Assembly (NCBI GenBank): GCA_016700135.1
Contig: CP065004.1
Span: 300,001-332,000 of the forward strand
Length of the DNA: 32,000 nt
Origin: Candidatus Saccharimonadota bacterium
Lineage (GTDB): Bacteria; Patescibacteriota; Microgenomatia; UBA1406; GWC2-37-13
Direction of reading: 5' to 3'
Part shown: piece after piece, positions 2,607 through 26,395 of the stretch
Numbering within the stretch: position 1 is the first letter of the stretch
Layout: every line of letters begins with the position of its first letter
Notes under the pieces: model-generated
The model's input: only the letters and a program-made list of their open reading frames with translations
Databases searched by the model: none
Told to the model about the DNA's origin: nothing
Program-made: the position numbers and the translations under genes

Positions 2607-4313
2607 TCAGCGTTCCATCTCAACCTCAATGACCCGTTTCAGGATCGCAAGGGAGGACGCATAGGTAGCCTCAACTCCTTCATAACCGAGGTTTCTGGTT
2701 CCGAGTGTGATCGCTTTCGTGAACGGCGTATCCGATGCATAGTGGATGATCCCGATATCTATCGGGGCGTTGAGCATAGTCACCGTTGTATTTTTGGGAT
2801 ATCGGTCGAAATGAGTCGTCTCGTATAAAGCGCTCAGATAAGGACCGTCCTCCATCTCGACTATCGTGTAATCTTCAATGAAGTACTGTTGAATCGCCTC
2901 TTCGGGATGGAGGAATGTGCCTTTCGTAGATACGACTTTCTGATTGGTCAGGACACTTCCCGCACGAAATTCCGTGAAGTAGTCTTTTGTAAAGGCATTA
3001 TTAAAAATGAACGTATTGTCACTGTACGTATCATATACTTTTGTCGGTAGTCCGATATCACCCAAGTTTGCATGCAAAAATGAGGCTTTCCCCAAAATAT
3101 ATACACCGCGAAGATCATTGACGTTGTGGAGAATCGTTGAGAGTACCATATAGGCTCCTGAGCCGAGAGGATAATCTATGTTGAGGACCAGTGCTTCGGA
3201 ATCGTCAAATTTCCCTTGAGCAATCCCCAGTTTTTTAGCCAAGCCTGTTTTCCCGACATCTTTCAGTGAAAATACCTGCGCATTGATATCGAGATAATGT
3301 TTCGCATCAATAAAATCAATACCCAATTCGCGTTCGTAAGCTTCCCGTTTTTCTCGAATTTCCGGATGCTCCCTTTCATACTTTTTCAGTATGTACCAGA
3401 GAAAATTTTCTTTCGAACCGGGATGCTCTCCTTTCTCGATCTGTTTCCAGTATGAGAGAAACCGCTCGGATTTATGTTCCTCAAGATATCCGATCAGCTC
3501 CTTTTCAATGCCTATGACCCAACCGGTGAGATTGTTTACGATGCTGTGAGTGTTTGATGAGACAAAATACAAAGGCTTATTCCTCAGTTCCTTATACCGC
3601 GTATGTTCAATAATATTTTCGAACCATCTCTGTGCTGCTTTTTTATAGTCGACATAATTACCCCGAAGCAGTCTTACGTTAAAATGAACTTCCTTTTCTT
3701 TGATGTTTTGGAGCTTTTCAAACATTTCTTTATCCCAGATTCGAGCCAGACGTTCCCAGTTTTCATCATCAATTTCAAGAACATCCTGAATCTCTTTTTT
3801 GTTCTTTGCGGAAATTTCTTTAGCATTTTTCAACCTGCTATGGAGTTTGTTCCACTCGATTTCATATGCCGTGAGAAGACCTACCATGTCATCCAGATCA
3901 GTCACGGAGTTGATGAACACGGCAAGCTGGGACTCTCCGTCATAGTACATCTTGCGGCGGCGTGCCGGTGCATGAACTTCCTGCCAGAACTCTATTTTGT
4001 ATCCTTCCCGCACAAAGATATCACCTATCTGTGCCATAACGATTTTGGAAATCTCGGATATATGAGGCGGCAAACGAAGATACGCATACATAAAAGCCTC
4101 AACATCGATTTTCTCCTGATCGGCGAATTTATGGATAGAAGGCCTCATGTTCTGATACAGCCGTACTACCTGTTCTATATTCATTTCTCCTTCTGCACGT
4201 AAGAATGATCTGTACGCATTGATATATATCGTGGTTGGGGAATGTTCTTGATCCATAACTGTACACATTTTAGCAGAAGTACGGATATTCTGAATGCAAG
4301 AAATGATTGACAT
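2607..4313 (-). CDS. hypothetical protein: long helical N-terminal region plus a C-terminal nucleoside phosphorylase / AMP-nucleosidase-like domain
   Basis: 568-aa ORF, first gene of the zwf-gnd operon. The C-terminal LVLNIDYPLGSGAYMVLSTILHNVNDLRGVYILGKASFLHANLGDIGLPT ... IVEMEDGPYLSA parallels the PNP_UDP_1 pattern (xGxGxxxAA...GxxGG...GD, then xxEME). An alternative start at MDQEHS (ATG 4256) lies 10 nt downstream of TGCTAAAAT (4275..4267). Confidence 0.75.
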   Translation of the reverse strand: MSIISCIQNIRTSAKMCTVMDQEHSPTTIYINAYRSFLRAEGEMNIEQVVRLYQNMRPSIHKFADQEKIDVEAFMYAYLRLPPHISEISKIVMAQIGDIFVREGYKIEFWQEVHAPARRRKMYYDGESQLAVFINSVTDLDDMVGLLTAYEIEWNKLHSRLKNAKEISAKNKKEIQDVLEIDDENWERLARIWDKEMFEKLQNIKEKEVHFNVRLLRGNYVDYKKAAQRWFENIIEHTRYKELRNKPLYFVSSNTHSIVNNLTGWVIGIEKELIGYLEEHKSERFLSYWKQIEKGEHPGSKENFLWYILKKYEREHPEIREKREAYERELGIDFIDAKHYLDINAQVFSLKDVGKTGLAKKLGIAQGKFDDSEALVLNIDYPLGSGAYMVLSTILHNVNDLRGVYILGKASFLHANLGDIGLPTKVYDTYSDNTFIFNNAFTKDYFTEFRAGSVLTNQKVVSTKGTFLHPEEAIQQYFIEDYTIVEMEDGPYLSALYETTHFDRYPKNTTVTMLNAPIDIGIIHYASDTPFTKAITLGTRNLGYEGVEATYASSLAILKRVIEVEMER

Positions 4314-8349: not shown

Positions 8350-8919
8350 TTATTGGCCGAGAAGCTGATCAATACGGGCTGTGTCGTATCCTACCACCAC
8401 TTCATTATCAATCCAGAGCTGAGGGACACCCATTTGTCCTGATTTTTGAACCATCTGCATCGCCGCCTCCCGATCTTTTGAGACATCAACATCTTCATAC
8501 GCAATATCTTTCTGATCAAGATATGCTTTGACCATGTGGCAATACGGACAAGTCGGGGTAGAGAAGACTTTTACCGATTGAGGACCTTCCTTCTTTTTTC
8601 CCTCAATAATTCCCGTAATAATTTCCCGAAACTCCTCTACTGTTTTTACACCCATATAGAGTCCCTTCATGGCGCCGTCTTTGAAGAAAATGACCGTCGG
8701 TAATCCCGCGATCCGATAATACGATGTAAAGCTCGGATTGGAATCCAGATCAACGCTTACGAAAGTGAGATCTTTTCCTTTATATTCCTCTTCAAGCTTT
8801 TCAATGACCGGACTGAGATGCTTGCAGGGTTCGCACCATTCTGTCTGAATAATGACACCGACCGTGCCTTTTTTTTCGACGACTTCTTTTTTAAAATCAG
8901 ATTGGGATATGTTTTTCAT
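8350..8919 (-). CDS. thioredoxin-glutaredoxin(NrdH-like) fusion protein
   Basis: The N-terminal Trx fold has the active site WCEPC and a cis-Pro in GLPTV. The C-terminal Grx/NrdH-like fold has CPYC and GVPQL. The start overlaps the PadR stop (ATGA). Confidence 0.8.
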   Translation of the reverse strand: MKNISQSDFKKEVVEKKGTVGVIIQTEWCEPCKHLSPVIEKLEEEYKGKDLTFVSVDLDSNPSFTSYYRIAGLPTVIFFKDGAMKGLYMGVKTVEEFREIITGIIEGKKKEGPQSVKVFSTPTCPYCHMVKAYLDQKDIAYEDVDVSKDREAAMQMVQKSGQMGVPQLWIDNEVVVGYDTARIDQLLGQ

Positions 8920-12991: not shown

Positions 12992-13023
12992 GAGCACTAG
13001 ATGTATGAGTGCTCTTTTTATTT
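12992..13023 (+). terminator. orphan intrinsic terminator in an AT-rich intergenic region
   Basis: GAGCACT (12992-12998) pairs with AGTGCTC (13008-13014) across a 9-nt loop, followed by TTTTTATTT. It lies 234 nt downstream of the typA stop. Confidence 0.55.
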
Positions 13024-13219
13024 GCAATCCAACAACTACAAAAAAAGAAAGGAGAATGCCTGACATTCAACTACGTTGTACAGGTGAAGCAGAAACCTGG
13101 AAGAGATCTTCGGATCGAATCGAATCTAAAGGAGTAATCCTGAGGAACTGCCGGTGAGAGCTCAATGTTCAAACCGCAATCACTATCCAAGACGTAGTAC
13201 TTTCAATGGAGGCAATCTC

Positions 13220-13735
13220 ATGTTTAGCAGCATTCCTGATCTGTTCAACCGCCGCAATGGCGACAAGTCCAAGAGTGTCGATCCCAATGCTATCCAGGTG
13301 ACGATCGAGGAGACCTACAGCATCCCGGTCGCGGCAGACCGCGAGATCGTGCAGACCGCCGTCCGCGAAACCTTGGAGCAGGTTCTGCCTGCCCTCCTGG
13401 CATCGCAGCGCCGCTCGCCGTATGATCGCTCTCCCTTTGAGTCCCCGTTCCGCAGCCGCCGCTCACCGTTTAGCTCGCCCTTTGGCGACGAAAACGACGA
13501 AGACGGCACAGACGCACTCGCCGCAATCATGGCCATGGCCATGATGGCCCTGCAGTCCGAGGAGAACGGTGAGCGCGACTGCGCGTACGGCGAAGACGAC
13601 TGCATGATCGGTCACGCCATGCGGACTCTGAACCTCTACGTGGAGGACGAGGAGTACCGGCGCTGGGCCGAAGAGGATGAAGGCGACGAAGAAGACATGC
13701 TCGCTGAAGAGGCAGCCGAGCAGGCTGCCGACTAG
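13220..13735 (+). CDS. acidic SPF-repeat protein of unknown function, encoded on a GC-rich island
   Basis: GGAGG (13208-13212) lies 7 nt before ATG 13220. Codon third positions are strongly G/C in this frame. The 171-aa product contains RSPYDRSPFESPFRSRRSPFSSPF and an acidic tail, EEDEGDEEDMLAEEAAEQAAD. Confidence 0.7.
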   Translation: MFSSIPDLFNRRNGDKSKSVDPNAIQVTIEETYSIPVAADREIVQTAVRETLEQVLPALLASQRRSPYDRSPFESPFRSRRSPFSSPFGDENDEDGTDALAAIMAMAMMALQSEENGERDCAYGEDDCMIGHAMRTLNLYVEDEEYRRWAEEDEGDEEDMLAEEAAEQAAD

Positions 13736-13785
13736 ACTGTCTGAGCTTCCGCTTTGAACAAAGCCCTTTCTGACCGTAGTTTGTT

Positions 13786-13810
13786 GGAGGGGGCACTCCG
13801 TGCCCCCTCC
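13786..13810 (+). terminator. perfect GC-rich hairpin downstream of the island gene (no U tract)
   Basis: GGAGGGGGCAC, a tcc loop, then GTGCCCCCTCC. It has no T-run, so terminator function is uncertain. Confidence 0.35.
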
Positions 13811-13850
13811 GACGCTTTGCGCCTTCCCTCATTCTTTCCTTTTAACAGAT

Positions 13851-14393
13851 ATGTCACTTACAGAATTACGCCCTCATTTCCCCGGATATATCGATGTCGC
13901 ACCGACCTGTCAGGATACCGAATGGCGCTGGTTGGAATATTTTCATTATGCAAACGGAGAGCCGCTCCAGACAAAAATGATTCAGGTAGTTAGCGCTCAT
14001 GATCCTCATCAATTTTGGACAACTACGGCCGTCATGAAAGAAAAACAGGGAGATAAACTTCTGGGATCAAAGACACACTTGTGTCTGACGGGAGAAATTG
14101 CAGGATTTGTAGCCGCAAATACACTGTCTCATGCCGAGCGGTTACGGTCTTATTACAAGCTTGCTAACAATCACTTCATGTTTTTCGGAGGAGTTCTGAT
14201 GAGACCTTTGATGGTATCTCCTCTTCCCCGAATGGGCTTTGATGAGATAAAAAATACATACTATAATCCGGATAATTCTGATTGGTATCTTGTACACCTA
14301 TTTGATTTGATTTCTCAAAAAAATATTCCTGTTGACCGGGAACGGTTTATAGCAAACGTCACAGCATTCTCACACTCCATCGGAGTCATCTAA
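13851..14393 (+). CDS. hypothetical protein (180 aa)
   Basis: The ORF from MSLTELRPHF has native-like composition and no recognisable motif. The ORF-track start at 13800 lies inside the hairpin and is rejected. Confidence 0.55.
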   Translation: MSLTELRPHFPGYIDVAPTCQDTEWRWLEYFHYANGEPLQTKMIQVVSAHDPHQFWTTTAVMKEKQGDKLLGSKTHLCLTGEIAGFVAANTLSHAERLRSYYKLANNHFMFFGGVLMRPLMVSPLPRMGFDEIKNTYYNPDNSDWYLVHLFDLISQKNIPVDRERFIANVTAFSHSIGVI

Positions 14394-14572: not shown

Positions 14573-15640
14573 ATGGATTCTTCATCATTTGAAACAATGC
14601 GTGAAGAACAGCTTCAAGAACGTGAAAGCGCGGATGTCACAAATGCCGCCCATATCCTCGGCAAGACCATGGGTGTCTCTCTTGACGGGATTCCGAGCTT
14701 TATGAAGCCTCAGGAAATTCCCGGTTTGCCGAAACAACAGGAAGGGATACCTGCCGATCATGATTGTACTATATGTGCCGTCACGGCAGCCTGCGGATTT
14801 TTCAGTGAAGCACAAAAAAACGGAGGGAATAATCCGTTGATGAGACGATTACAGGCAGTTCAGGAACTGACAAAATCTAATCCGGATATTTTGAAAGGCC
14901 CCGACGCAGAGAGTCTTATCAGGGAGCGTATGGACGCATTAAAAATCCAACCGGAAACGGTTATAACTCCTTCTTCAGAAGTTACTCCGACGAAACAGGA
15001 GGCAGTAAAACCGGCTGCGTCCGTGATACCGGAACCCGTATCGATCGTGAAAGAGGCCTCCAAAGCACAAAATGAAATCCCCAACGTGAAACCTGTCGAA
15101 GCCGCCCCTCCTCCAATTGCAAAACCTGATCTGAAAACAACTGTCGCTCATTTTGAAGCAAAAGTCCAACCTACATTGTCAGTTGAAAAGCCAAATACAA
15201 TAGCATCTTTGCCACACGACCCTACCCCTGCGGAAACCGGAACCGTTCCTCCCACTGAAACTGCGCACCAATCAGCACCTCCCGCTGAACAATCCGTACC
15301 TTCTGCAGGAGATGCTCCTGTTGTAGGAGCATCTGAACATCAGAACAAACCAAATGAAAAATTGACAGAGAACACATTACTCAAAGAATCAGATGAACCA
15401 AAGAAAGAGACCCACCAACAAACTGGAGTGAAAGAGGTAGCAGTTTCTGAAACCTCAACTACAGCAGCAACTATCGACAAAACAGAACAACAATTTGAGG
15501 ATTTCCAACAATCTACATCGGAAGTACAGCAAACTAAGCATACGGCAAATCCTTCCGAGTATCCGCCCGAAACTCCCCACCAGGCGGGACAAACTGTAAA
15601 GGAAAAAGCAAAAGCCTCAAACGTATATGAAAGGCTCTAG
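14573..15640 (+). pseudogene. 5' fragment of an IS-disrupted gene for a ~900-aa acidic, Pro/Thr/Glu/Ser-rich protein
   Basis: The ORF runs into the IS left inverted repeat. There it gains two foreign codons (R, L) and stops at TAG 15638-15640. Confidence 0.8.
15626..15632. repeat. target-site duplication TATGAAA (left copy)
   Basis: Identical 7-mer immediately flanking each inverted repeat of the IS. Confidence 0.8.
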
Positions 15641-16347
15641 ACTAGCACATTAACAATTTGTAATAGTTCATTGTAAAGGATCGATGGGGATTTGCTCCAT
15701 CTCCATTCACACTCTTTCAAGTGTAATGGAAAGTTTTTCTTTACACCATTGAACTTAACGAGACGTCTTTTACAAAAGGACCAGAATGACTCTATGCCAT
15801 TGATATGGACCCCTTTTGTATTTGAGAACTCATTTTTCTTGTGATTGATTCTCAAATGTTTGTCATACCCGACATCAACAAGTCCGTTGTATCCGCTCCA
15901 CGAATCTGAATATACAGTACTGTTCAAGTCAATCTTTCCCTTCATAACAGCATGTAGCGTTCTTCTTTTACAGTTTGGAATGATACGAGTAAATACACGT
16001 CCTTGACGCTCATATATCCCAAATACTACCTGCTTAAATGACGTCCCACGACCTCTTTTACTTGACTTGCCTCTCATCCTTCGAGGTCCAAAGTATGATT
16101 CATCAATTTCTATCTCACCACCAACATATCGTTGCATCTGGTGCACTTGGTGATGATATATGAGTTGACGAATATTATTGTAATATTTGTTGACTGTATT
16201 GCGGTTGAGACCCAAAATACCAGAGGTCTGTGTAGCACTCAGATCGTGTGCAAAACACCATAGTATCTTTTTTCTCTTGTATTTTGATATCGGCCTATTG
16301 TTACAAACCATACCTCTAGTTTAGCACTACTCTGCTAGTCTAGAGCC
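15633..16347 (-). mobile_element. IS1595-family insertion sequence (small, IS1016-like size class), 715 bp
   Basis: Perfect 15-bp terminal inverted repeats: GGCTCTAGACTAGCA at 15633-15647 and its complement at 16333-16347. It has a single transposase ORF and 7-bp direct repeats. Confidence 0.9.
15637..16311 (-). CDS. IS1595-family (ISXO2-like DDE) transposase
   Basis: 224 aa. EIDESYFG, KRGRGT..K..VFGIYER.G.V, YSDSWSGYNGL, INH..NEF and HINGIESFWSF.KRRL are hallmark blocks of DDE_Tnp_IS1595. The stop codon lies inside the inverted repeat. Confidence 0.9.
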   Translation of the reverse strand: MVCNNRPISKYKRKKILWCFAHDLSATQTSGILGLNRNTVNKYYNNIRQLIYHHQVHQMQRYVGGEIEIDESYFGPRRMRGKSSKRGRGTSFKQVVFGIYERQGRVFTRIIPNCKRRTLHAVMKGKIDLNSTVYSDSWSGYNGLVDVGYDKHLRINHKKNEFSNTKGVHINGIESFWSFCKRRLVKFNGVKKNFPLHLKECEWRWSKSPSILYNELLQIVNVLV

Positions 16348-20575: not shown

Positions 20576-21604
20576 ATGAAACGCTTTTTACCAATCACTA
20601 TCCTGATTATCGCTTTGATTGCCGGATACTTTTTTCTAAACCGGAAAGCTGAATCGAATCCTTTCACATCGATAAAGGAAGTAATCGCGACACCTACTCC
20701 TGTATCGTTTGTCGAACTTACCATCCCCTACCTCCGAGAACGTTCCTACACAAGTACTCTCGGAGAAAGAACCTTATTTGAAAACAACGGATCATATGAT
20801 TCGTACCTCACGTCGTATGACTCTGACGGGTTGAAAATCAACGGACTCCTCACAATACCGACAGGTGAAGAACCGGAGAACGGGTGGCCAGCCATCGTCT
20901 TTATTCACGGATATATTCCTCCCGCTCAGTATCAGACTACTGAAAAATATACTGATTACGTCAATTATCTCGCCAGAAACGGCTTTGTTGTTTTCAAAAT
21001 TGATTTACGCGGACACGGAGACTCAGAAGGTACACCCGGCGGAGCATATTATTCATCCGATTATGTCATCGACACCCTCAATGCGTATGCAGCACTCCGG
21101 AACACGGATTTTGTAGATCCTGAGTCAATTGGCCTTTGGGGGCACAGTATGGCCGGAAATGTAATTCTGAGAAGTATGGCTGCACGGCCTGATATTCCCG
21201 CCGCAGTAATCTGGGCAGGCGCAGTATATACCTATGAAGACATGAGAAGATACGGAATAAGCGACAGCAGTTATGTCCCGCCGCCATCGGGATCTCCTAC
21301 ACGACAGACAAGAAGGCGTATTTTTGAAAAGGTCGGTGAATTTTCACCTGACAATGAATTCTGGAAACAGGTCGCAGCAACAAATTATCTTGATGATATT
21401 AAGGGATCATTGCAAATACATCATGCCGTAAACGATGATGTCGTCAGTATCGAATACAGCAGAAATCTGCTCAAAGTGGCGGAAGGTACCGGTTTTTCCG
21501 TAGAAGTAATTGAGCATCCGTCAGGCGGTCATAATATTTCCGATCCCGGTTTTAGTGAAGCCATGCAGGAAACGGTAACCTTTTTTTCCGAACATCTTCG
21601 ATAG
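20576..21604 (+). CDS. alpha/beta hydrolase (S9 prolyl-oligopeptidase/dienelactone-hydrolase-like), N-terminal membrane anchor
   Basis: GLWGHSMAGNV is the GxSxG nucleophile elbow. A downstream Asp (HHAVNDDVV) and His (SGGHNI) complete a plausible triad. Confidence 0.75.
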   Translation: MKRFLPITILIIALIAGYFFLNRKAESNPFTSIKEVIATPTPVSFVELTIPYLRERSYTSTLGERTLFENNGSYDSYLTSYDSDGLKINGLLTIPTGEEPENGWPAIVFIHGYIPPAQYQTTEKYTDYVNYLARNGFVVFKIDLRGHGDSEGTPGGAYYSSDYVIDTLNAYAALRNTDFVDPESIGLWGHSMAGNVILRSMAARPDIPAAVIWAGAVYTYEDMRRYGISDSSYVPPPSGSPTRQTRRRIFEKVGEFSPDNEFWKQVAATNYLDDIKGSLQIHHAVNDDVVSIEYSRNLLKVAEGTGFSVEVIEHPSGGHNISDPGFSEAMQETVTFFSEHLR

Positions 21605-24184
21605 TTACCTACTCCAGAGGTTGGGGAATTGTTCTCCATAAAGGGCTGTAGCAAACCAGACAATGTTTTGAGTGTAATAGTTTTCCGGATCTTCCCAATA
21701 CGAATGTTTCTTATTTTCGTACAACTTGCTGAGTATCTTTTCCGAATATATTTTTTCCGCTGTCTTCGGATCTTCGGCAAGAAAGTATCCGAGATTGCCT
21801 GCGTATGCGACTGCAGATTCATACTGATCCCATGGTTGTCCATCATGGGTGTATGAGACATACAGTTTACCGTTTCTGTTCCATTCTTCTCCCAAAAAGG
21901 CAAGTGATGAAAGGTACTCTTTTGCCTCAGGTCTGCCGAACCATTGATAGTCGAGTGCCACTCTCATCGGTACCCGGATGGCATTGTACCCGTATTCTAT
22001 TCCCTCAGGACCCGGTTTCTCGGACGGACGCACTTCACGCGATGACCGGTCAAGAACGCACCATTCAGGCGGCAACACTTCTCTGCCTCCTGATAGTCCG
22101 AAACTGCACCGCTGCAAAAGGTCATAAGATGTATCAACTAAGGATCCCCAGTCATGGCTTTTATCAATTTGGGCAAATATTTCGTAATGAGACGGAGAAA
22201 GATATGAAGGATTAATAGTGGCAAACTGTGATCCTGACGCCCAATTCCCGGCAGTCATGTAGGGATCATCCCCGATAACTACTACCTCATGGTCCCAAAT
22301 ACCGTTTAGTACTTTCTCAGACTCGCTCAGATATGCCGGATCGTCCCACTGTTTATACGCAAATGCTAATGCCAGTGCAATATCAGCATCTGCATCAGAA
22401 GCTGTTCCTTTGTCATCTCCTTTCCTTTTAAAACTCCAGAGAAACAGATTTTCATCGGTTTGAAGCTGTCCTTTTGTCCATGAGTAGACCTGATCAAACG
22501 TTTTCTTATCATCCATAAGAACGGCCCGAAGAAGAGCATAGGATTGTCCTTCCGACGTTGTGTCCTTTGTCGCGGGATCAATCACACGACCTCCATGGAT
22601 AAACTCATCCTTGTATGATGCCCATGTCGCCTGCAGTATCCGTTGGGGATATTCCGTACCCCAGATCTCGACACCCCATCCGTCACGCGAGAAAGTCGCA
22701 ATCGGCCGGGAATTGGCAAGAGCTTCTCCGACAAACGGGAACACTCCGGTATTGACATCATTCAAAAGCTGCGGAGATATGAGAAAATAATCAATATTTC
22801 CGGGATTTCCTTTCAGAATATCCTGCTGGATTTCAGGGTCATACTCAACCTTCCAGTAATGGTGAGCTTCCGCAAAATTTCCGTTATTTTTTTCCATCAA
22901 ATCTACAAATCCGTAATTATCCATCGTGTAAAAAGCATCCCGGTACTGTTTCGAGAGCATATACTCAATTGCTTCCATCTGCGGTTCCGTCTGATCGGAA
23001 AGATATAGCTTGTGACCGTCCCTCATGCTGAAGCTCAATATTACAAACACAATGGGCAAAACAATCATGAATGCCGCATTCGGAATCCATTTTATAGACT
23101 CTTTGGCTTTCACATTGCGGTAGAGCTCTTCTCCGAGATAGTATCCGGCATAGGCAATATTCATTGCAAAGAATGGGAAAAGCGGAATAATATAAAACTC
23201 AATGACGATACCGCCGCGGACCAGATAACCGATAAGCGATAACGTGAGTAATGAGAGAATTCGTGCAGCTTTTTGTCTGATCCCGATGATCAGATTCACG
23301 AGCGTAGTCCCAAATCCGAGCAGTATGATAACCGGATCTTCTCTCATCCAGATTCCGAAGTTGTGCCAGAAGGTACTTCCTGAAATATCGAATATACTTC
23401 CCCCATCCCGTTCCGCCTGAAAAATGAGAGTTTCAATAAGACTGACATGATTTGCTGATCCGAACATTCCTTCCGGGAACAATTCCCCTTTCAGCAGTGC
23501 ATACAAAAAATAGAGAGAAACAACCAGTCCGACATAGCTGATCCATTTGATGACGGCAAATAAGCGATGATGCTTATGCACCTGAAGATACACAATGTAC
23601 ACAAACACGGGAAGCATAAATACGGATGTTTCTTTTGAAAGAAATGAAAACCCGAATGCTATGGCACTGAACATAATATTACGAAGCTTATTGTTGTAGT
23701 AAAGTAAAAAAGCAAGAGAAACAAGTACCCAGAATACCATGATATTATCGAGGAGAATTCTCCGCTGGAAATATATTGCAAGTGGAGAAAATGAGAATAT
23801 GATGACACTCAAAGCGCTTGCTAAACGACTTCCTGACAACTTTTTCATTATGAAGTACACCAGGATGCTCGATGCCATATGCATAAGCAGCATAAAAACC
23901 CGGCCGAAATTTACGGAAAATCCGAAACTGAAAAAGTCAGGGATAATGGCATACCAACCTGCAAGCATCATCCAACCGAGAGGCGCATGATCATACCAGT
24001 AAGTGTAAGCATCCATTTGTCCCAGGTTTATCAGCGACCAGGCCCTTCCTAAATAGATTGCTTCATCATTTTCGTAGTATGGAAAATGAAACATATTGAC
24101 GGCATGAGCTATCGCCCCTATGAGGACAACAAGAAGTACCAGTCTACTCTCCCTCCGGTTGAAAAATGATATGATACGACGCAT
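21605..24184 (-). CDS. fusion of a GT-C (PMT_2/GT39/ArnT-like) polyprenyl-phosphate-sugar-dependent glycosyltransferase with a C-terminal GH8 glycoside hydrolase
   Basis: The N-terminal ~420 aa are polytopic, with the loop-1 acidic motif YYENDEAIY typical of PMT_2 enzymes. In the C-terminal ~340 aa, TSEGQSYALL is the GH8 catalytic-Glu region. ASDADADIALALAFAYKQW matches the PROSITE GH8 signature with one mismatch. Confidence 0.8.
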   Translation of the reverse strand: MRRIISFFNRRESRLVLLVVLIGAIAHAVNMFHFPYYENDEAIYLGRAWSLINLGQMDAYTYWYDHAPLGWMMLAGWYAIIPDFFSFGFSVNFGRVFMLLMHMASSILVYFIMKKLSGSRLASALSVIIFSFSPLAIYFQRRILLDNIMVFWVLVSLAFLLYYNNKLRNIMFSAIAFGFSFLSKETSVFMLPVFVYIVYLQVHKHHRLFAVIKWISYVGLVVSLYFLYALLKGELFPEGMFGSANHVSLIETLIFQAERDGGSIFDISGSTFWHNFGIWMREDPVIILLGFGTTLVNLIIGIRQKAARILSLLTLSLIGYLVRGGIVIEFYIIPLFPFFAMNIAYAGYYLGEELYRNVKAKESIKWIPNAAFMIVLPIVFVILSFSMRDGHKLYLSDQTEPQMEAIEYMLSKQYRDAFYTMDNYGFVDLMEKNNGNFAEAHHYWKVEYDPEIQQDILKGNPGNIDYFLISPQLLNDVNTGVFPFVGEALANSRPIATFSRDGWGVEIWGTEYPQRILQATWASYKDEFIHGGRVIDPATKDTTSEGQSYALLRAVLMDDKKTFDQVYSWTKGQLQTDENLFLWSFKRKGDDKGTASDADADIALALAFAYKQWDDPAYLSESEKVLNGIWDHEVVVIGDDPYMTAGNWASGSQFATINPSYLSPSHYEIFAQIDKSHDWGSLVDTSYDLLQRCSFGLSGGREVLPPEWCVLDRSSREVRPSEKPGPEGIEYGYNAIRVPMRVALDYQWFGRPEAKEYLSSLAFLGEEWNRNGKLYVSYTHDGQPWDQYESAVAYAGNLGYFLAEDPKTAEKIYSEKILSKLYENKKHSYWEDPENYYTQNIVWFATALYGEQFPNLWSR

Positions 24185-24187
24185 AGG

Positions 24188-26287
24188 TTACTGAAAAAGA
24201 TATTTTCGTACGGGTTCAGGTTTACGGTGAACGTTGAGATGCTGTGTTTTTTCCCAGGAAGAGGATCCCCTTCTGTGCCTGTAAAGTGCCCGTATAGCAC
24301 TAATACTGAGAAGTATTTGATACGGTAAGAAAAAGAGTAACAATTTGAACGACGAAAAAATCGGATACCGAAGGCTGTATTTCCTGGTAAATTCAAACAA
24401 TCCGATATTGAGTACAACAAGCTGTGAGATAAGTGTTAGGAGCGGTATGAATGTATAAACCGCAACATACACATCCAGTTTATAGGCAATTGCCGTATAG
24501 ACCATGAAGGGAATAATCAGTATCGTCACGCTCTGAATAAACGGAATGAGAAGGACATAGGATGCCAGCAGTTTTTTTCTTCCCCCTCCGAGATACAGCC
24601 ATTCACCTTTCAGAAAGATCTGCAGAAAGCCCTGAATCCATCTCGTCCGCTGTCTGATAAAATCCCGGACAGTATGAGGAGTTTCCTCCCGAGTCGCCAG
24701 TTTTTCATCATAGACTACCTGGAATTTGGCTCCTGCGGCACTCAGCCGAATACCGATATCAGCGTCTTCCGTGAGGCACTGTTCATCCCATCCGCCTACT
24801 TCATCAAGTATTTTTTTACGGAAAAATACCGTATTGCCACCCAAAGGGACAAGACCGTTATTTGCAAAAAAGTGAAGAGTAGATTTAAACCAGAAAAAAT
24901 ATTCAAGCACATTGAACGTCGCAAACCAGTGAGTGTCAAAATTCATCAACTGTACTCCCGATTGAACAACATCAATTTTCGGATCTTTCTGTACGACGGT
25001 ATTGACCACTTTATAGATATCCTTATTGGGCTGATCTTCTGCATCGAAAATGACAACAACATCATTTTTCACATACGGTAGTGCGATGTTGAGTGCGTGT
25101 GGCTTGTTTATAGGTCCGTCCATAAATGTCACAAGCCGAATCTTATCGTTCTGCAGCTTGTTTATGACATGATGTACTTTTTCGATAGTACCGATGTCAT
25201 CATACCGGCAGACAATAATAAGTTGTTTTTTTGTATCGTCATAATCAATCGCATTAATTGCGCGGATAGTATCGCCAATAACTTCTTTCTCATTCCGAGC
25301 CGGTAAAATGGCAGTGAAAGACAAATCGGAAGGAGCAAAACGGGCGGGAACTTTACTAGTGTGAATCCGATCCACATCTTCCCAGTAGTACAGCATGAGA
25401 TAAATATTGAATATTCCCATCACGAGAACAATAGATGAGAAGCCAAAGAGAACAAGTGAGAGAAACTGAGTAAACGGGAACAGAAAATATAAAAATACTA
25501 TCCCCGTGAGAAATAATCCGATAAATGATAGTATCAGATAGCTCGGCTTAATGAGTGTCAATCTCAGGTTCAGGCAATACAGAATGAATTCAACAATATC
25601 CGAAATCCGAAGTTTTGACGATCCGTATTCACGTTCTTTGAAGTGTATCGGGACCTCAGCTACTTTTGCCTTATGTTTAAAAGCATGGTGCAACAGTCCT
25701 ACTAAAAAGACATATCCCTTCGCTCCGATATACCGCAGCTGAATCTTTTTAAGCAGATTTGCATTGATCGCCCGGTAGGCACTCGTACAGTCATTTACTT
25801 TTCGTAATCCTCCGATATAACGTGCTACCCGATTCCCGACTGCGCTGTTCAGCCTTCTGAGCCACGACCACTCGGTAGGCAGGGATCCTCCTTTAGTATA
25901 TCTTGATCCGATTGCTATATCCTGGCCGTCAATCACCTGCTGCACGAGAAACGGAAGAATGTTCGGGTCATGGGAAAAATCCGCATCCATTCCGACTACA
26001 ATATCCGCATTCAGCTTTTCCAATGCATGTTTATATCCCTTCATGTATGCAATACCGAGCCCTTCCTTTCGGCCGAGAATCAGATGAATATGTTCATTGT
26101 GCTGGGCAAGTCTTCTGACAACCGCACTCGTTCCGTCCGGGGAATTATCATCTACAACAAGGACATCAAGTCCGTGAGAATCAAAACATTTCTTCTGCTC
26201 AAAAATATTACCGATCAGTTTTTCAATGTTATCCCGTTCATTGAAGGTTGGGACTACCACAACAACTTTTTGCTCTTGTTTGTTCAT
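24188..26287 (-). CDS. dual GT2 protein: polyprenol-phosphate mannose/glucose synthase-like domain, TM segment, then a processive beta-glycan synthase-like GT2 domain with C-terminal TM helices
   Basis: Domain 1: VVVVPTFNERDNIEKL, VVDDNSPDGT and MDADFSHDP (DPM1/Ppm1-like). Domain 2: ILPARNE, IFDAEDQP, LTEDADIGIRL (TED) and IRQRTRWIQG (QxxRW). The stop lies 3 nt before the next gene's ATG. Confidence 0.8.
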   Translation of the reverse strand: MNKQEQKVVVVVPTFNERDNIEKLIGNIFEQKKCFDSHGLDVLVVDDNSPDGTSAVVRRLAQHNEHIHLILGRKEGLGIAYMKGYKHALEKLNADIVVGMDADFSHDPNILPFLVQQVIDGQDIAIGSRYTKGGSLPTEWSWLRRLNSAVGNRVARYIGGLRKVNDCTSAYRAINANLLKKIQLRYIGAKGYVFLVGLLHHAFKHKAKVAEVPIHFKEREYGSSKLRISDIVEFILYCLNLRLTLIKPSYLILSFIGLFLTGIVFLYFLFPFTQFLSLVLFGFSSIVLVMGIFNIYLMLYYWEDVDRIHTSKVPARFAPSDLSFTAILPARNEKEVIGDTIRAINAIDYDDTKKQLIIVCRYDDIGTIEKVHHVINKLQNDKIRLVTFMDGPINKPHALNIALPYVKNDVVVIFDAEDQPNKDIYKVVNTVVQKDPKIDVVQSGVQLMNFDTHWFATFNVLEYFFWFKSTLHFFANNGLVPLGGNTVFFRKKILDEVGGWDEQCLTEDADIGIRLSAAGAKFQVVYDEKLATREETPHTVRDFIRQRTRWIQGFLQIFLKGEWLYLGGGRKKLLASYVLLIPFIQSVTILIIPFMVYTAIAYKLDVYVAVYTFIPLLTLISQLVVLNIGLFEFTRKYSLRYPIFSSFKLLLFFLPYQILLSISAIRALYRHRRGSSSWEKTQHLNVHRKPEPVRKYLFQ

Positions 26288-26395
26288 ATAAAAAAAAGAC
26301 GCATATAATCATGCGAAGACTCACTATATATGTACCAAATACGTAATTTGGTAAGAGAAAAGTGAAGATGTGGTAAGGGATATCCGCCAAAAAAT

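What the first reader, a model, noticed from the sequence alone, without database searches (positions are those of the whole stretch)
21605..26287. Two-gene operon of cross-fused glycan-synthesis enzymes (Ppm1-like + processive GT2 | GT-C + GH8)
The two translationally coupled genes (stop, 3 nt, ATG at 24184-24190) pack four catalytic modules:
- (a) a DPM1/Ppm1-like GT2, which normally makes polyprenyl-phosphate-sugar on the cytoplasmic face
- (b) a processive GT2 carrying the DxD, TED and QxxRW motifs of cellulose, chitin, hyaluronan and PNAG synthases, flanked by TM helices
- (c) a polytopic GT-C (PMT_2/ArnT-like) enzyme, which normally consumes polyprenyl-phosphate-sugar outside the membrane
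- (d) a GH8 domain, the family of the cellulose-synthase accessory endoglucanase BcsZ

The functionally matched pairs are a+c and b+d. Each pair is split across the two polypeptides, so the two proteins probably have to work together.

Together they could form a minimal, self-contained machine. It could synthesise, export and trim a beta-glycan and decorate it, or a surface protein, with a lipid-linked sugar.

I do not know of a characterised system with this architecture. Whether it is already catalogued needs a database check.
Basis: partly seen in the sequence, partly recalled or inferred. Interest (0 to 1): 0.7.

Follow-up and report, generated by a model that had tools for sequence, protein, structure and literature searches.

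The report
Glycan synthase paired with GT-C transferase
Two back-to-back genes in a Candidatus Roizmanbacteria genome really do carry four sugar-handling modules, but comparison with about 80 other species shows the conserved pair is a membrane polysaccharide synthase plus a lipid-sugar-using (GT-C) transferase, an uncharacterised surface-glycan machine found in several bacterial phyla.

Summary
Two minus-strand ORFs (26287-24188, 699 aa; 24184-21605, 859 aa) are separated by TAA-cct-ATG. They carry a DPMS/Ppm1-like GT2, a processive BcsA/PgaC-like GT2, a PMT_2-type GT-C and a GH8 domain. All pass Pfam thresholds and give confident AlphaFold models.

The fusions are not artefacts: hundreds of full-length homologues exist, mostly in Patescibacteria.

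In 64 of 74 species-level loci the processive GT2 lies directly upstream of the GT-C, often overlapping by 4 nt. This holds in Patescibacteria, Chloroflexota, Dormibacterota and Actinomycetota. The Ppm1-like and GH8 modules are optional: fused, encoded separately, or absent.

Transferase catalytic residues are essentially invariant. The GH8 catalytic set is intact in only 36 of 60 homologues, and here the general-base position is Asn734.

Best reading (about 50%): one synthase-dependent machine. The GT2 extrudes a beta-linked backbone. The GT-C decorates it outside the membrane from polyprenyl-phosphate-sugar made by the Ppm1-like module. The GH8 domain binds and perhaps weakly trims the chain. 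Sugar identities are unknown.

No paper or curated family names this system.

The parts
24188..26287 (-). Gene A, 699 aa: DPMS/Ppm1-like GT2, then a 2-TM hairpin, then a processive GT2 with C-terminal TM helices.
   Evidence: ORF. Pfam. AF2 model with pLDDT 88.1. Foldseek matches.
25553..26287 (-). Module a (residues 1-245): polyprenyl-phosphate glycosyltransferase-like GT2. D46D47 lies at 26147-26152 and D101AD103 at 25979-25987. An interface helix spans residues 228-245.
   Evidence: phmmer against PDB gives Pyrococcus DPMS 5mlz at E=8e-32 and ArnC at 1e-17. Foldseek top matches are 5mlz, ArnC and GtrB. The Asp residues are kept in 24 of 24 orthologous modules.
25391..25546 (-). TM hairpin (residues 248-299). 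It returns the chain to the cytoplasm, so both GT2 modules face the same side.
   Evidence: AF2 helices 248-269 and 272-299. Hydropathy profile.
24608..25318 (-). Module b catalytic domain (residues 324-560): processive-type GT2. DAED lies at 25034-25045, TED at 24764-24772 and QRTRW at 24638-24652.
   Evidence: Pfam PF13641 at 3e-45 and PF13632 at 1e-28. BcsA at E=6e-12. Foldseek matches BcsA, HAS and PcManGT. The motif residues are invariant in 72-74 of 74 loci, except Thr506, which is kept in 59 of 74.
24272..24583 (-). C-terminal membrane helices of module b (residues 569-672). These are the putative glycan-conducting part of the synthase.
   Evidence: AF2 helices 569-601, 606-636 and 645-672. 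The PgaC_IcaA model aligns over residues 288-678.
24182..24190 (-). Gene junction: TAA, cct, ATG.
   Evidence: In homologous loci the junction is typically a 4-nt overlap or a gap of 1-5 nt.
21605..24184 (-). Gene B, 859 aa: GT-C membrane module, then an alpha/beta linker domain, then GH8.
   Evidence: ORF. Pfam. AF2 model with pLDDT 87.8 and pTM 0.79.
23036..24184 (-). Module c (residues 1-383): GT-C with 11 TM helices. D40E41 (24062-24067) and the YTYWYDH motif (23987-24007) lie in the first outside loop.
   Evidence: Pfam PMT_2 and PMT. AF2 helices. D40 is kept in 78 of 79 loci, E41 in 79 of 79, and R141 and K184 in 80 of 80. No sequence relative exists in the PDB.
22655..22990 (-). Extracytoplasmic alpha/beta linker domain (residues 399-510). 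In GH8-less homologues it forms the end of the protein.
   Evidence: AF2 secondary structure. Homologues of about 520-540 aa end at about residue 507.
21638..22648 (-). Module d (residues 513-849): GH8 (alpha/alpha)6 barrel. E545 is at 22550-22552, D599 at 22388-22390, Y661 at 22202-22204, and N734, at the general-base position, at 21983-21985.
   Evidence: Pfam at 5.7e-44. Alignments to CelA and BcsZ. Foldseek TM-score normalised to target about 0.8 against BcsZ, CMCax and CelA. Catalytic-site census.

Best explanation
The two genes encode one synthase-dependent surface-glycan machine. Its conserved core is the processive GT2 plus the GT-C enzyme.

Proposed steps:
1. Module b uses a nucleotide sugar in the cytoplasm to polymerise a beta-linked chain and pushes it through its own membrane helices.
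2. Module a, tethered to b in the same polypeptide, loads a sugar onto polyprenyl phosphate. Mannose is the leading guess, because its closest relatives are dolichol-phosphate-mannose synthases.
3. The lipid-linked sugar is flipped by a component not encoded here.
4. The GT-C module c, sitting beside the synthase, transfers that sugar onto the emerging chain outside the membrane. The chemistry of both families predicts an alpha-linked branch on a beta backbone.
5. The C-terminal linker and GH8 domains of gene B grip the acceptor chain, as the carbohydrate-binding modules of other GT-C enzymes do, and may cut it slowly.

Shown: the domain identities, conserved catalytic residues, topology and conserved gene pairing. 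Inferred: the physical complex, the polymer as acceptor, the sugars, and the binding role of GH8.
For: 1. Conserved b-c pairing. The GT2 lies directly upstream of the GT-C in 64 of 74 loci and within the locus in 72 of 74, usually overlapping by 4 nt or separated by 1-5 nt. This holds in Patescibacteria, Chloroflexota, Dormibacterota and Actinomycetota.

2. All four modules recur in different physical arrangements. Microbacterium has GT2 | GT-C | DUF4397 | GH8-sortase | Ppm1-like as separate genes. Anaerolineae has FHA-Ppm1-GT2 (L047). Other homologues have Ppm1 + GtrA/DPMS TM domain + GT2 in one chain (P0226, P0237, P0240). L057 has GtrA-GT2. GtrA-type domains belong to lipid-linked-sugar pathways.

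3. Catalytic residues of a, b and c are kept in nearly every locus, so all three transferases are under selection.

4. Module a's nearest relatives are all polyprenyl-phosphate glycosyltransferases: DPMS, ArnC and GtrB. Module c matches PMT_2/PMT, which are users of polyprenyl-phosphate monosaccharides.

5. Topology puts a and b inside the cell and the DE loop plus GH8 outside.

6. The GH8 catalytic set is intact in only 36 of 60 relatives, and the base position is Asn here. This fits a binding role. Precedent: the C-terminal CBMs of GT-C enzymes (ORF12/GT136, EmbC, AftD) bind the acceptor polysaccharide (PMC11127046).

7. Other outside appendages replace or join GH8: DUF4397 in mycobacteria and LysM (P0384).
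Against: - No direct evidence of a b-c complex. No b-c fusion protein was found among ten long family representatives checked, and no multimer model could be run.
- No flippase is encoded in the window.
- Many loci lack a nearby Ppm1-like gene: only 24 of 80 have a hit of at least 130 bits. The donor must then come from elsewhere, or the GT-C does something else.
- No characterised synthase-dependent polymer is known to me to be decorated by a GT-C, and the literature searches here found none.
- The GT-C acceptor could equally be a protein or a lipid.
- Sugar identities are guesses.
Confidence: 0.5

Rival explanations
1. Lipid-primed synthase with en-bloc transfer. Module a makes a polyprenyl-phosphate-sugar primer. 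Module b elongates it and carries the growing chain across the membrane. The GT-C then acts as a ligase, moving the finished chain from the lipid onto peptidoglycan, a protein or a lipid. GH8 sets chain length or releases the chain.
For: - It explains why a is fused to b and why b-c are always together.
- Cell-wall-related partners appear in relatives: a dedicated sortase fused to GH8, a DUF4397 protein with a sorting-signal-like C-terminus in Microbacterium, and LysM on P0384.
- The best structural match to module b relative to target size is PcManGT, a minimal cellulose-synthase-like enzyme (TM-score normalised to target 0.75).
Against: - PMT_2/ArnT-type GT-C enzymes transfer single sugars from polyprenyl monophosphates.
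- Most loci have a stand-alone GT2 of 420-480 aa with no Ppm1-like gene nearby.
Confidence: 0.2
2. There are two separate pathways that merely share an operon: a+c glycosylate a surface protein or lipid (Ppm1/Pmt-like), while b+d make and trim a cellulose-like beta-glucan (BcsA/BcsZ-like).
For: Each pair has a textbook precedent. Domain identities are confirmed. The GH8 domain's best structural matches are BcsZ-family enzymes.
Against: - Evolution conserves b+c, not a+c or b+d.
- GH8 is missing from many loci and is catalytically eroded in 24 of 60. It has Asn at the base position here.
- Module a is absent from most loci.
- No PilZ domain or BcsB is present. The BcsZ and CelA equivalog models fall far below their cutoffs: 113 against 299 and 55 against 699.
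Confidence: 0.15
3. Module b is not a polymer synthase. It is a non-processive membrane GT2 that builds a glycolipid or a short lipid-linked oligosaccharide, which the GT-C then extends or transfers. The result would be an envelope glycolipid or lipoglycan pathway.
For: Weak Pfam matches to Glyco_transf_21. There is a fold match to PcManGT. No partner such as BcsB or PgaD is present.
Against: The TED and QxxRW motifs are invariant, and the PgaC-like 2+3 membrane-helix architecture aligns over the whole PgaC_IcaA model. A glycan-cleft GH8 domain implies a polymeric ligand.
Confidence: 0.12
4. The fusions are assembly or frameshift artefacts, or the ORFs are decaying pseudogenes.
For: None found.
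Against: Hundreds of independent full-length homologues from many assemblies have the same architecture. The catalytic motifs are conserved. The AF2 models are confident.
Confidence: 0.01

Closest known systems
Three-component extracytoplasmic glycosylation systems. Examples: GtrA/GtrB/Gtr(type); GacI/GacK/GacL; CsbB/GtcA/YfhO; ArnC/ArnEF/ArnT; and the PPPRS/MATE/GT136 system of PMC11127046.
   Same: A cytoplasmic GT2 makes a polyprenyl-phosphate sugar, and a GT-C uses it outside the membrane. Some GT-C enzymes carry a C-terminal acceptor-binding module. GtrA-type TM domains are fused in homologues of gene A.
   Different: Here the system is physically built around a processive synthase-type GT2. 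The conserved partner of the GT-C is that synthase, not the lipid-sugar synthase. No flippase gene is present in the window. The outside appendage is a GH8 fold rather than a beta-sandwich CBM.
Synthase-dependent exopolysaccharide systems: cellulose BcsA-BcsB-BcsZ, PNAG PgaCD/IcaAD, and hyaluronan synthase.
   Same: Module b has the D, DxD, TED and QxxRW motifs, flanking TM helices and a BcsA/HAS-like fold. Its best family-level match is PgaC_IcaA. A GH8 domain accompanies it, as BcsZ accompanies BcsA.
   Different: There is no PilZ, BcsB or PgaD partner. All equivalog models score far below cutoff. The GH8 is tethered to a GT-C, lacks the base Asp here, and is dispensable across the family. 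FHA, VWA or DUF4388 domains appear in relatives where c-di-GMP modules would be expected.
Ppm1/Pmt protein O-mannosylation of Actinobacteria, and eukaryotic DPM1/PMT.
   Same: A DPMS-like GT2 (27% identity to Pyrococcus DPMS by Foldseek, E=8e-32 by phmmer) is combined with a GT-C that matches Pfam PMT/PMT_2 and has a DE motif in loop 1.
   Different: No MIR domain is present. A profile of the GT-C finds no solved PMT, ArnT or other GT-C by sequence. The GT-C family is a separate clade of about 480 clusters at 50% identity with E<=1e-30, always linked to a processive GT2.
Listeria Pss exopolysaccharide system with its glycosidase PssZ.
   Same: A synthase-dependent EPS in a single-membrane bacterium, with a dedicated (alpha/alpha)6 glycosidase. 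The GH126 founder CPF_2247 appears among the fold matches (rank 37).
   Different: PssZ belongs to GH126, not GH8 (PMC7479077). I know of no GT-C enzyme in that operon; this rests on my own knowledge and was not tested.

Membership tests
Polyprenyl-phosphate glycosyltransferase GT2 (DPMS/Ppm1, GtrB, ArnC) | GT-A domain with a DxD motif and significant similarity to characterised members | tested here: met
   D46D47 and D101AD103 are conserved. 5mlz at E=8e-32, ArnC at 1e-17, GtrB at 8e-7. Foldseek top matches are 5mlz, ArnC and GtrB.
Polyprenyl-phosphate glycosyltransferase GT2 (DPMS/Ppm1, GtrB, ArnC) | Amphipathic interface helix and membrane anchor directly after the catalytic domain | tested here: met
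   AF2 helix 228-245 followed by TM helices 248-269 and 272-299. The alignment to 5mlz runs into the first TM helix.
Polyprenyl-phosphate glycosyltransferase GT2 (DPMS/Ppm1, GtrB, ArnC) | Product is a polyprenyl-phosphate sugar | not testable with these tools
   Needs an enzyme assay with C55-P or dolichol-P and GDP-Man, UDP-Glc or UDP-GlcNAc.
Processive membrane GT2 synthases (BcsA, PgaC/IcaA, HAS, chitin synthase) | D, DxD, TED and QxxRW motifs | tested here: met
   D415AED418, T506ED508 and Q546RTRW550 are invariant in the 26-sequence alignment. Across 72-74 loci all are invariant except Thr506, kept in 59 of 74.
Processive membrane GT2 synthases (BcsA, PgaC/IcaA, HAS, chitin synthase) | Membrane helices on both sides of the catalytic domain and a synthase-like fold | tested here: met
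   AF2 model. Foldseek matches BcsA, HAS and PcManGT at E of 1e-15 to 1e-12.
Processive membrane GT2 synthases (BcsA, PgaC/IcaA, HAS, chitin synthase) | Reaches a curated equivalog score for a named synthase (PgaC_IcaA, CelA, NodC) | tested here: not met
   PgaC_IcaA 130 against 422; CelA 55 against 699; NodC 39 against 550. It is therefore not a member of any named synthase family, and the polymer is unknown.
Bcs cellulose synthase operon | BcsA with a C-terminal PilZ domain, plus a BcsB partner | tested here: not met
   No PilZ domain in gene A. No BcsB-like gene in the window.
GT-C fold, PMT/ArnT-like (GT39/GT83) | Pfam PMT_2 or PMT above gathering score | tested here: met
   41.1 against 26.1 and 32 against 22.7.
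GT-C fold, PMT/ArnT-like (GT39/GT83) | Acidic DE/DxD motif in the first extracytoplasmic loop; polytopic with N-terminus inside and C-terminus outside | tested here: met
   D40E41 is kept in 78-79 of 79 loci. The model has 11 TM helices with K/R-rich loops on one face. The sidedness itself is inferred.
GT-C fold, PMT/ArnT-like (GT39/GT83) | Detectable sequence relationship to a characterised or solved PMT or ArnT; MIR domain for true PMTs | tested here: not met
   A profile of 20 GT-C modules finds no PDB chain at E<=1. Foldseek gives only weak matches to AglB, ALG12 and STT3. Pfam finds no MIR domain. It is a separate GT-C clade.
Glycoside hydrolase family 8 | Pfam GH8 and the (alpha/alpha)6 fold | tested here: met
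   151 bits against 24. TM-score normalised to target 0.79-0.83 against BcsZ, CMCax and CelA.
Glycoside hydrolase family 8 | Catalytic proton donor Glu (CelA Glu95), with the supporting Asp and Tyr (CelA Asp152 region, Tyr215) | tested here: met
   E545 aligns with Q95 of the CelA E95Q mutant 1kwf. D599 and Y661 are present.
Glycoside hydrolase family 8 | General base Asp at the CelA Asp278 / AfmE1 Asp225 position (GH8a; PMC5407803) | tested here: not met
   Asn734 in this protein. Across 60 relatives the position is D in 43, N in 7 and other or gap in 10. The full set is intact in 36 of 60. A base at another position, as proposed for other GH8 subfamilies, could not be checked.
Gtr-type three-component glycosylation system | Dedicated flippase (GtrA, GtcA, MATE or ArnEF type) encoded with the GT2 and the GT-C | tested here: not met
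   None among the window ORFs scanned with Pfam; a few had no Pfam match at all. A GtrA/DPMS TM domain is fused to the synthase in homologues (L057; P0226, P0237, P0240).

The most novel reading that the evidence does not exclude
This is a previously unrecognised class of synthase-dependent glycan secretion system that spans several phyla. In it, a dedicated GT-C enzyme is the obligate membrane partner of a PgaC/BcsA-like synthase, taking the place that BcsB or PgaD holds elsewhere. The GT-C branches the polymer co-synthetically from a lipid-linked sugar. The product is a major, so far undescribed envelope heteroglycan of Patescibacteria, Chloroflexota and many Actinomycetota.
Probability: 0.35. 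Interest if true: 0.8.

Novelty: new variant of a known kind. Interest (0 to 1): 0.6.

Why it matters
Patescibacteria have tiny genomes and poorly understood envelopes, yet they widely keep this two-gene unit. It is a good candidate for a main surface polymer, and so for attachment to hosts.

The same core pair occurs in cultivable Actinomycetota: Microbacterium, Nocardioides, Frigoribacterium, Mycolicibacterium, and some Streptomyces and Mycobacterium. The hypothesis can therefore be tested genetically and biochemically now.

If the GT-C acts on the nascent chain, this would be the first synthase-dependent polysaccharide pathway with built-in lipid-linked-sugar branching. It would join two textbook routes of glycan assembly. 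It would also offer a compact two-gene cassette for making branched beta-glycans.

Tried and rejected
- Frameshift or assembly artefact: rejected.
- Canonical Bcs or Pga operon: rejected. No PilZ, BcsB or PgaD is present, and the equivalog scores are far below cutoff.
- True PMT or ArnT: rejected. The profile has no PDB relative, and there is no MIR domain.
- b-c 'Rosetta-stone' fusions, sought among family representatives with long N-terminal extensions: none found. The extensions were DUF4388, DnaJ, a transposase (probably a mis-called ORF) or unknown.
- Looked for other glycan genes or a flippase in the window: found only housekeeping genes, an IS1595 transposase and ORFs with no Pfam match.
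- tRNA and Rfam scans of the window were empty.
- The promoter and terminator scan was no better than shuffled sequence.
- Literature searches for the architecture in CPR, Saccharibacteria and Actinobacteria, and for DUF4397 and GT-C plus synthase, found nothing specific.
- My recollection that Listeria PssZ is GH8 was wrong; it is GH126.
- The exact-sequence contig look-up found no record.
- An alternative GH8 base was considered in E789, which is at least 90% conserved among close relatives. It is kept in only 23 of 60 across the wider family, so it is not a convincing substitute.
Full report
**What is there.**
The window is from a Candidatus Roizmanbacteria (Patescibacteria/CPR) genome. A 100%-identical, full-length protein is recorded from a 1.45-Mb contig under the generic name 'glycosyltransferase family 39 protein'. 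Two minus-strand ORFs fill the flagged interval: gene A at 26287-24188 (699 aa) and gene B at 24184-21605 (859 aa). They are separated by TAA-cct-ATG. The neighbours are unrelated and on the other strand or convergent: uracil-DNA glycosylase upstream; an alpha/beta hydrolase, HxlR and a cupredoxin downstream. The unit is therefore a stand-alone two-gene operon. No tRNA or Rfam family lies in the window, and the promoter and terminator scan is uninformative.

**The four modules are real.**
Pfam places a GT2 domain at residues 10-181 of gene A and a second, PF13641/PF13632-type GT2 at residues 324-614. It places PMT_2/PMT at residues 65-225 of gene B and GH8 at residues 518-754. All are above gathering score.

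- *Module a.* Against solved structures, the N-terminal GT2 matches Pyrococcus dolichol-phosphate-mannose synthase (E=8e-32), ArnC and GtrB. All of these are polyprenyl-phosphate glycosyltransferases.
- *Module b.* The second GT2 matches BcsA.
- *Module d.* The GH8 domain matches CelA and BcsZ-type enzymes.
- *Models.* AlphaFold models are confident (pLDDT 87.8 and 88.1). Foldseek gives the same answers.
- *Module c.* The GT-C is more isolated. A profile of 20 family members finds no solved GT-C by sequence. Foldseek finds only weak matches to AglB, ALG12 and STT3.

**Topology.**
In gene A a two-helix hairpin (residues 248-299) separates the two GT2 modules, so both are on the same side, the cytoplasmic one. 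Three long helices follow the QRTRW helix. In gene B the model has 11 membrane helices. The short K/R-rich loops (115-120, 162-166, 201-204, 301-304, 358-362) and the Arg-rich N-terminus fall on one side. The D40E41 loop, the 232-270 loop, the linker domain (399-510) and GH8 (513-849) fall on the other. The GH8 domain being extracytoplasmic is therefore a well-founded inference.

**Not an artefact, and widespread.**
The best 120 homologues of gene B are all about 820-925 aa with PMT plus GH8. Most of the best 120 homologues of gene A are about 700-aa GT2+GT2 proteins. Many pairs in the two lists have matching longest-contig lengths, consistent with a shared contig. An exhaustive search with the GT-C part alone finds 481 clusters at 50% identity with E<=1e-30.

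**What evolution conserves.**
I split the two proteins into five pieces and mapped them on 80 loci.

- *Core pair.* The processive GT2 lies directly upstream of the GT-C on the same strand in 64 of 74 loci with enough flank, and somewhere in the locus in 72 of 74. The junction is typically a 4-nt overlap or a gap of 1-5 nt. This holds in Patescibacteria, Chloroflexota (Anaerolineae, Dehalococcoidia, Chloroflexaceae), Dormibacterota and Actinomycetota (Mycobacterium, Mycolicibacterium, Streptomyces, Microbacterium, Nocardioides, Frigoribacterium).
- *Ppm1-like module.* It is fused in only a subset. Elsewhere the synthase is a stand-alone protein of 420-480 aa, or it carries FHA, FHA+Ppm1, VWA, a GtrA/DPMS TM domain or an unknown N-terminal domain. 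Three homologues combine Ppm1-like, GtrA-type TM and synthase in one chain.
- *GH8.* It is fused in Patescibacteria, Chloroflexaceae and Dormibacterota. It is absent from many Anaerolineae and Dehalococcoidia, whose GT-C ends after the linker domain. In Microbacterium it is a separate gene.
- *Microbacterium operon.* It reads GT2 | GT-C | DUF4397 | GH8-sortase | Ppm1-like.
- *Mycobacteria.* The GT-C carries DUF4397 instead.

So all four modules do travel together repeatedly, which supports a single pathway.

**Catalytic residues.**
- Synthase: D415, E417, D418, E507, D508, Q546, R549 and W550 are kept in 72-74 of 74 loci.
- GT-C: D40 in 78 of 79, E41 in 79 of 79, R141 and K184 in 80 of 80.
- Ppm1-like module: the Asp residues in 24 of 24.
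- GH8, by contrast: E545 aligns with CelA Glu95 (it aligns with the Gln of the E95Q mutant 1kwf), and D599 and Y661 are present. The position of the general base, CelA Asp278 (equivalent to AfmE1 Asp225; PMC5407803), is Asn734 here. Across 60 relatives the full set E-D-Y-D is intact in only 36. The acid itself is replaced in 12.

The GH8 domain is therefore under weaker catalytic constraint than the transferases. Its conserved job may be to hold a glycan.

**Mechanism.**
GT2 enzymes invert, giving beta-linkages and beta-linked polyprenyl-phosphate sugars. GT-C enzymes invert again. This is established family knowledge.

The most economical reading is one machine. The synthase extrudes a beta-linked backbone. 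The Ppm1-like module makes the lipid-linked donor; mannose is the leading guess from its DPMS similarity. A flippase not encoded here moves the donor outward. The GT-C, held next to the synthase, adds alpha-linked branches. Its linker and GH8 domains bind the chain and possibly trim it.

GT-C enzymes with C-terminal acceptor-binding modules are known: ORF12/GT136, EmbC and AftD (PMC11127046). I put this reading at about 0.5. The physical complex, the acceptor and the sugars are inferred.

**Rivals.**
- A lipid-primed synthase with the GT-C as an en-bloc ligase (0.2). The sortase, LysM and DUF4397 partners in relatives hint at cell-wall attachment.
- A non-processive glycolipid or lipid-linked-oligosaccharide route (0.12).

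**Known or new.**
NCBI and JGI names are generic: 'glycosyltransferase family 39', 'glycosyl hydrolase family 8', 'glycosyltransferase XagB'. No NCBIfam equivalog is reached: PgaC_IcaA 130 against 422, BcsZ 113 against 299. Six targeted literature searches found nothing on this architecture.

It is built from known families, but the arrangement is not described: a synthase obligately paired with a GT-C, with a lipid-sugar synthase and a glycan-binding or glycan-cleaving fold bolted on. I rate it a new variant of a known kind, interest 0.6. The fact that cultivable Actinomycetota carry the same core makes it directly testable.

Noticed in passing
L072:9928-12425 (Microbacterium radiodurans): In the actinobacterial version of the cluster, a DUF4397 protein has a signal peptide and a C-terminal sorting-signal-like tail: 'IETGG', then a hydrophobic stretch, then RRRGSR. 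The next ORF appears to fuse GH8 to a sortase domain. This suggests a dedicated sortase-substrate pair tied to the glycan system. The ORF start of the GH8-sortase gene is uncertain in this high-GC DNA.
   Followed up: partly
P0241-P0360; L071:7956-10913: In mycobacteria (Mycobacterium sp. JS623, Mycolicibacterium celeriflavum, M. psychrotolerans and others) the orthologous GT-C is fused to DUF4397 instead of GH8. It is annotated only as 'family 39' or 'ArnT family' glycosyltransferase.
   Followed up: partly
L015:5374-10643, L024:4975-10622, L026:9525-12699: Some Patescibacteria carry two tandem GT-C-GH8 genes, or a second GH8 copy, after a single synthase gene. In L026 the fused GH8 has lost the catalytic Glu while the extra copy keeps the full set.
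   Followed up: partly
P0384; P0406 and P0411: One family member has GT-C + GH8 + a C-terminal LysM (peptidoglycan-binding) domain. Others carry an N-terminal DUF4388 domain, and synthase homologues carry FHA or VWA domains. These hint at phosphorylation-type regulation rather than c-di-GMP regulation.
   Followed up: no
window 26300-26315 (- strand): A terminator-like hairpin (CGCATGATTATATGCG followed by a T-run) sits 13 nt upstream of the gene A start codon, in the divergent intergenic region shared with the UDG gene. No Shine-Dalgarno-like sequence precedes either gene. It may be chance or a 5' leader structure.
   Followed up: no
window 21604/21605: The convergent alpha/beta-hydrolase (S9/S33-like) gene ends at 21604 and the stop codon of gene B starts at 21605. 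There is no intergenic base between them.
   Followed up: no
window 15637-16311 (- strand): An IS1595/ISXO2-like DDE transposase ORF (Pfam PF12762, 1.7e-27) lies about 5 kb from the operon.
   Followed up: no
window 13001-14000: A local G+C peak (54% against about 43% elsewhere) covers an ORF (13154-13735) for a very acidic protein with no Pfam match. No tandem repeats or Rfam matches were found there.
   Followed up: partly
window 2607-4313 (- strand): A large DUF6909 protein (Pfam E=1.7e-173) is encoded immediately upstream of, and overlapping, the glucose-6-phosphate dehydrogenase and 6-phosphogluconate dehydrogenase-like genes.
   Followed up: no
window 8350-8919 (- strand): A single ORF fuses a thioredoxin domain to a glutaredoxin domain.
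   Followed up: no
L002, L005, L007, L010, L011, L016-L018 and other record titles: Several MAGs carrying the typical Patescibacteria-type operon are labelled 'uncultured Gammaproteobacteria', 'Pseudomonadales' or 'Bdellovibrionales' in their record titles. These are probably mislabelled bins rather than real occurrences in those groups.
   Followed up: no
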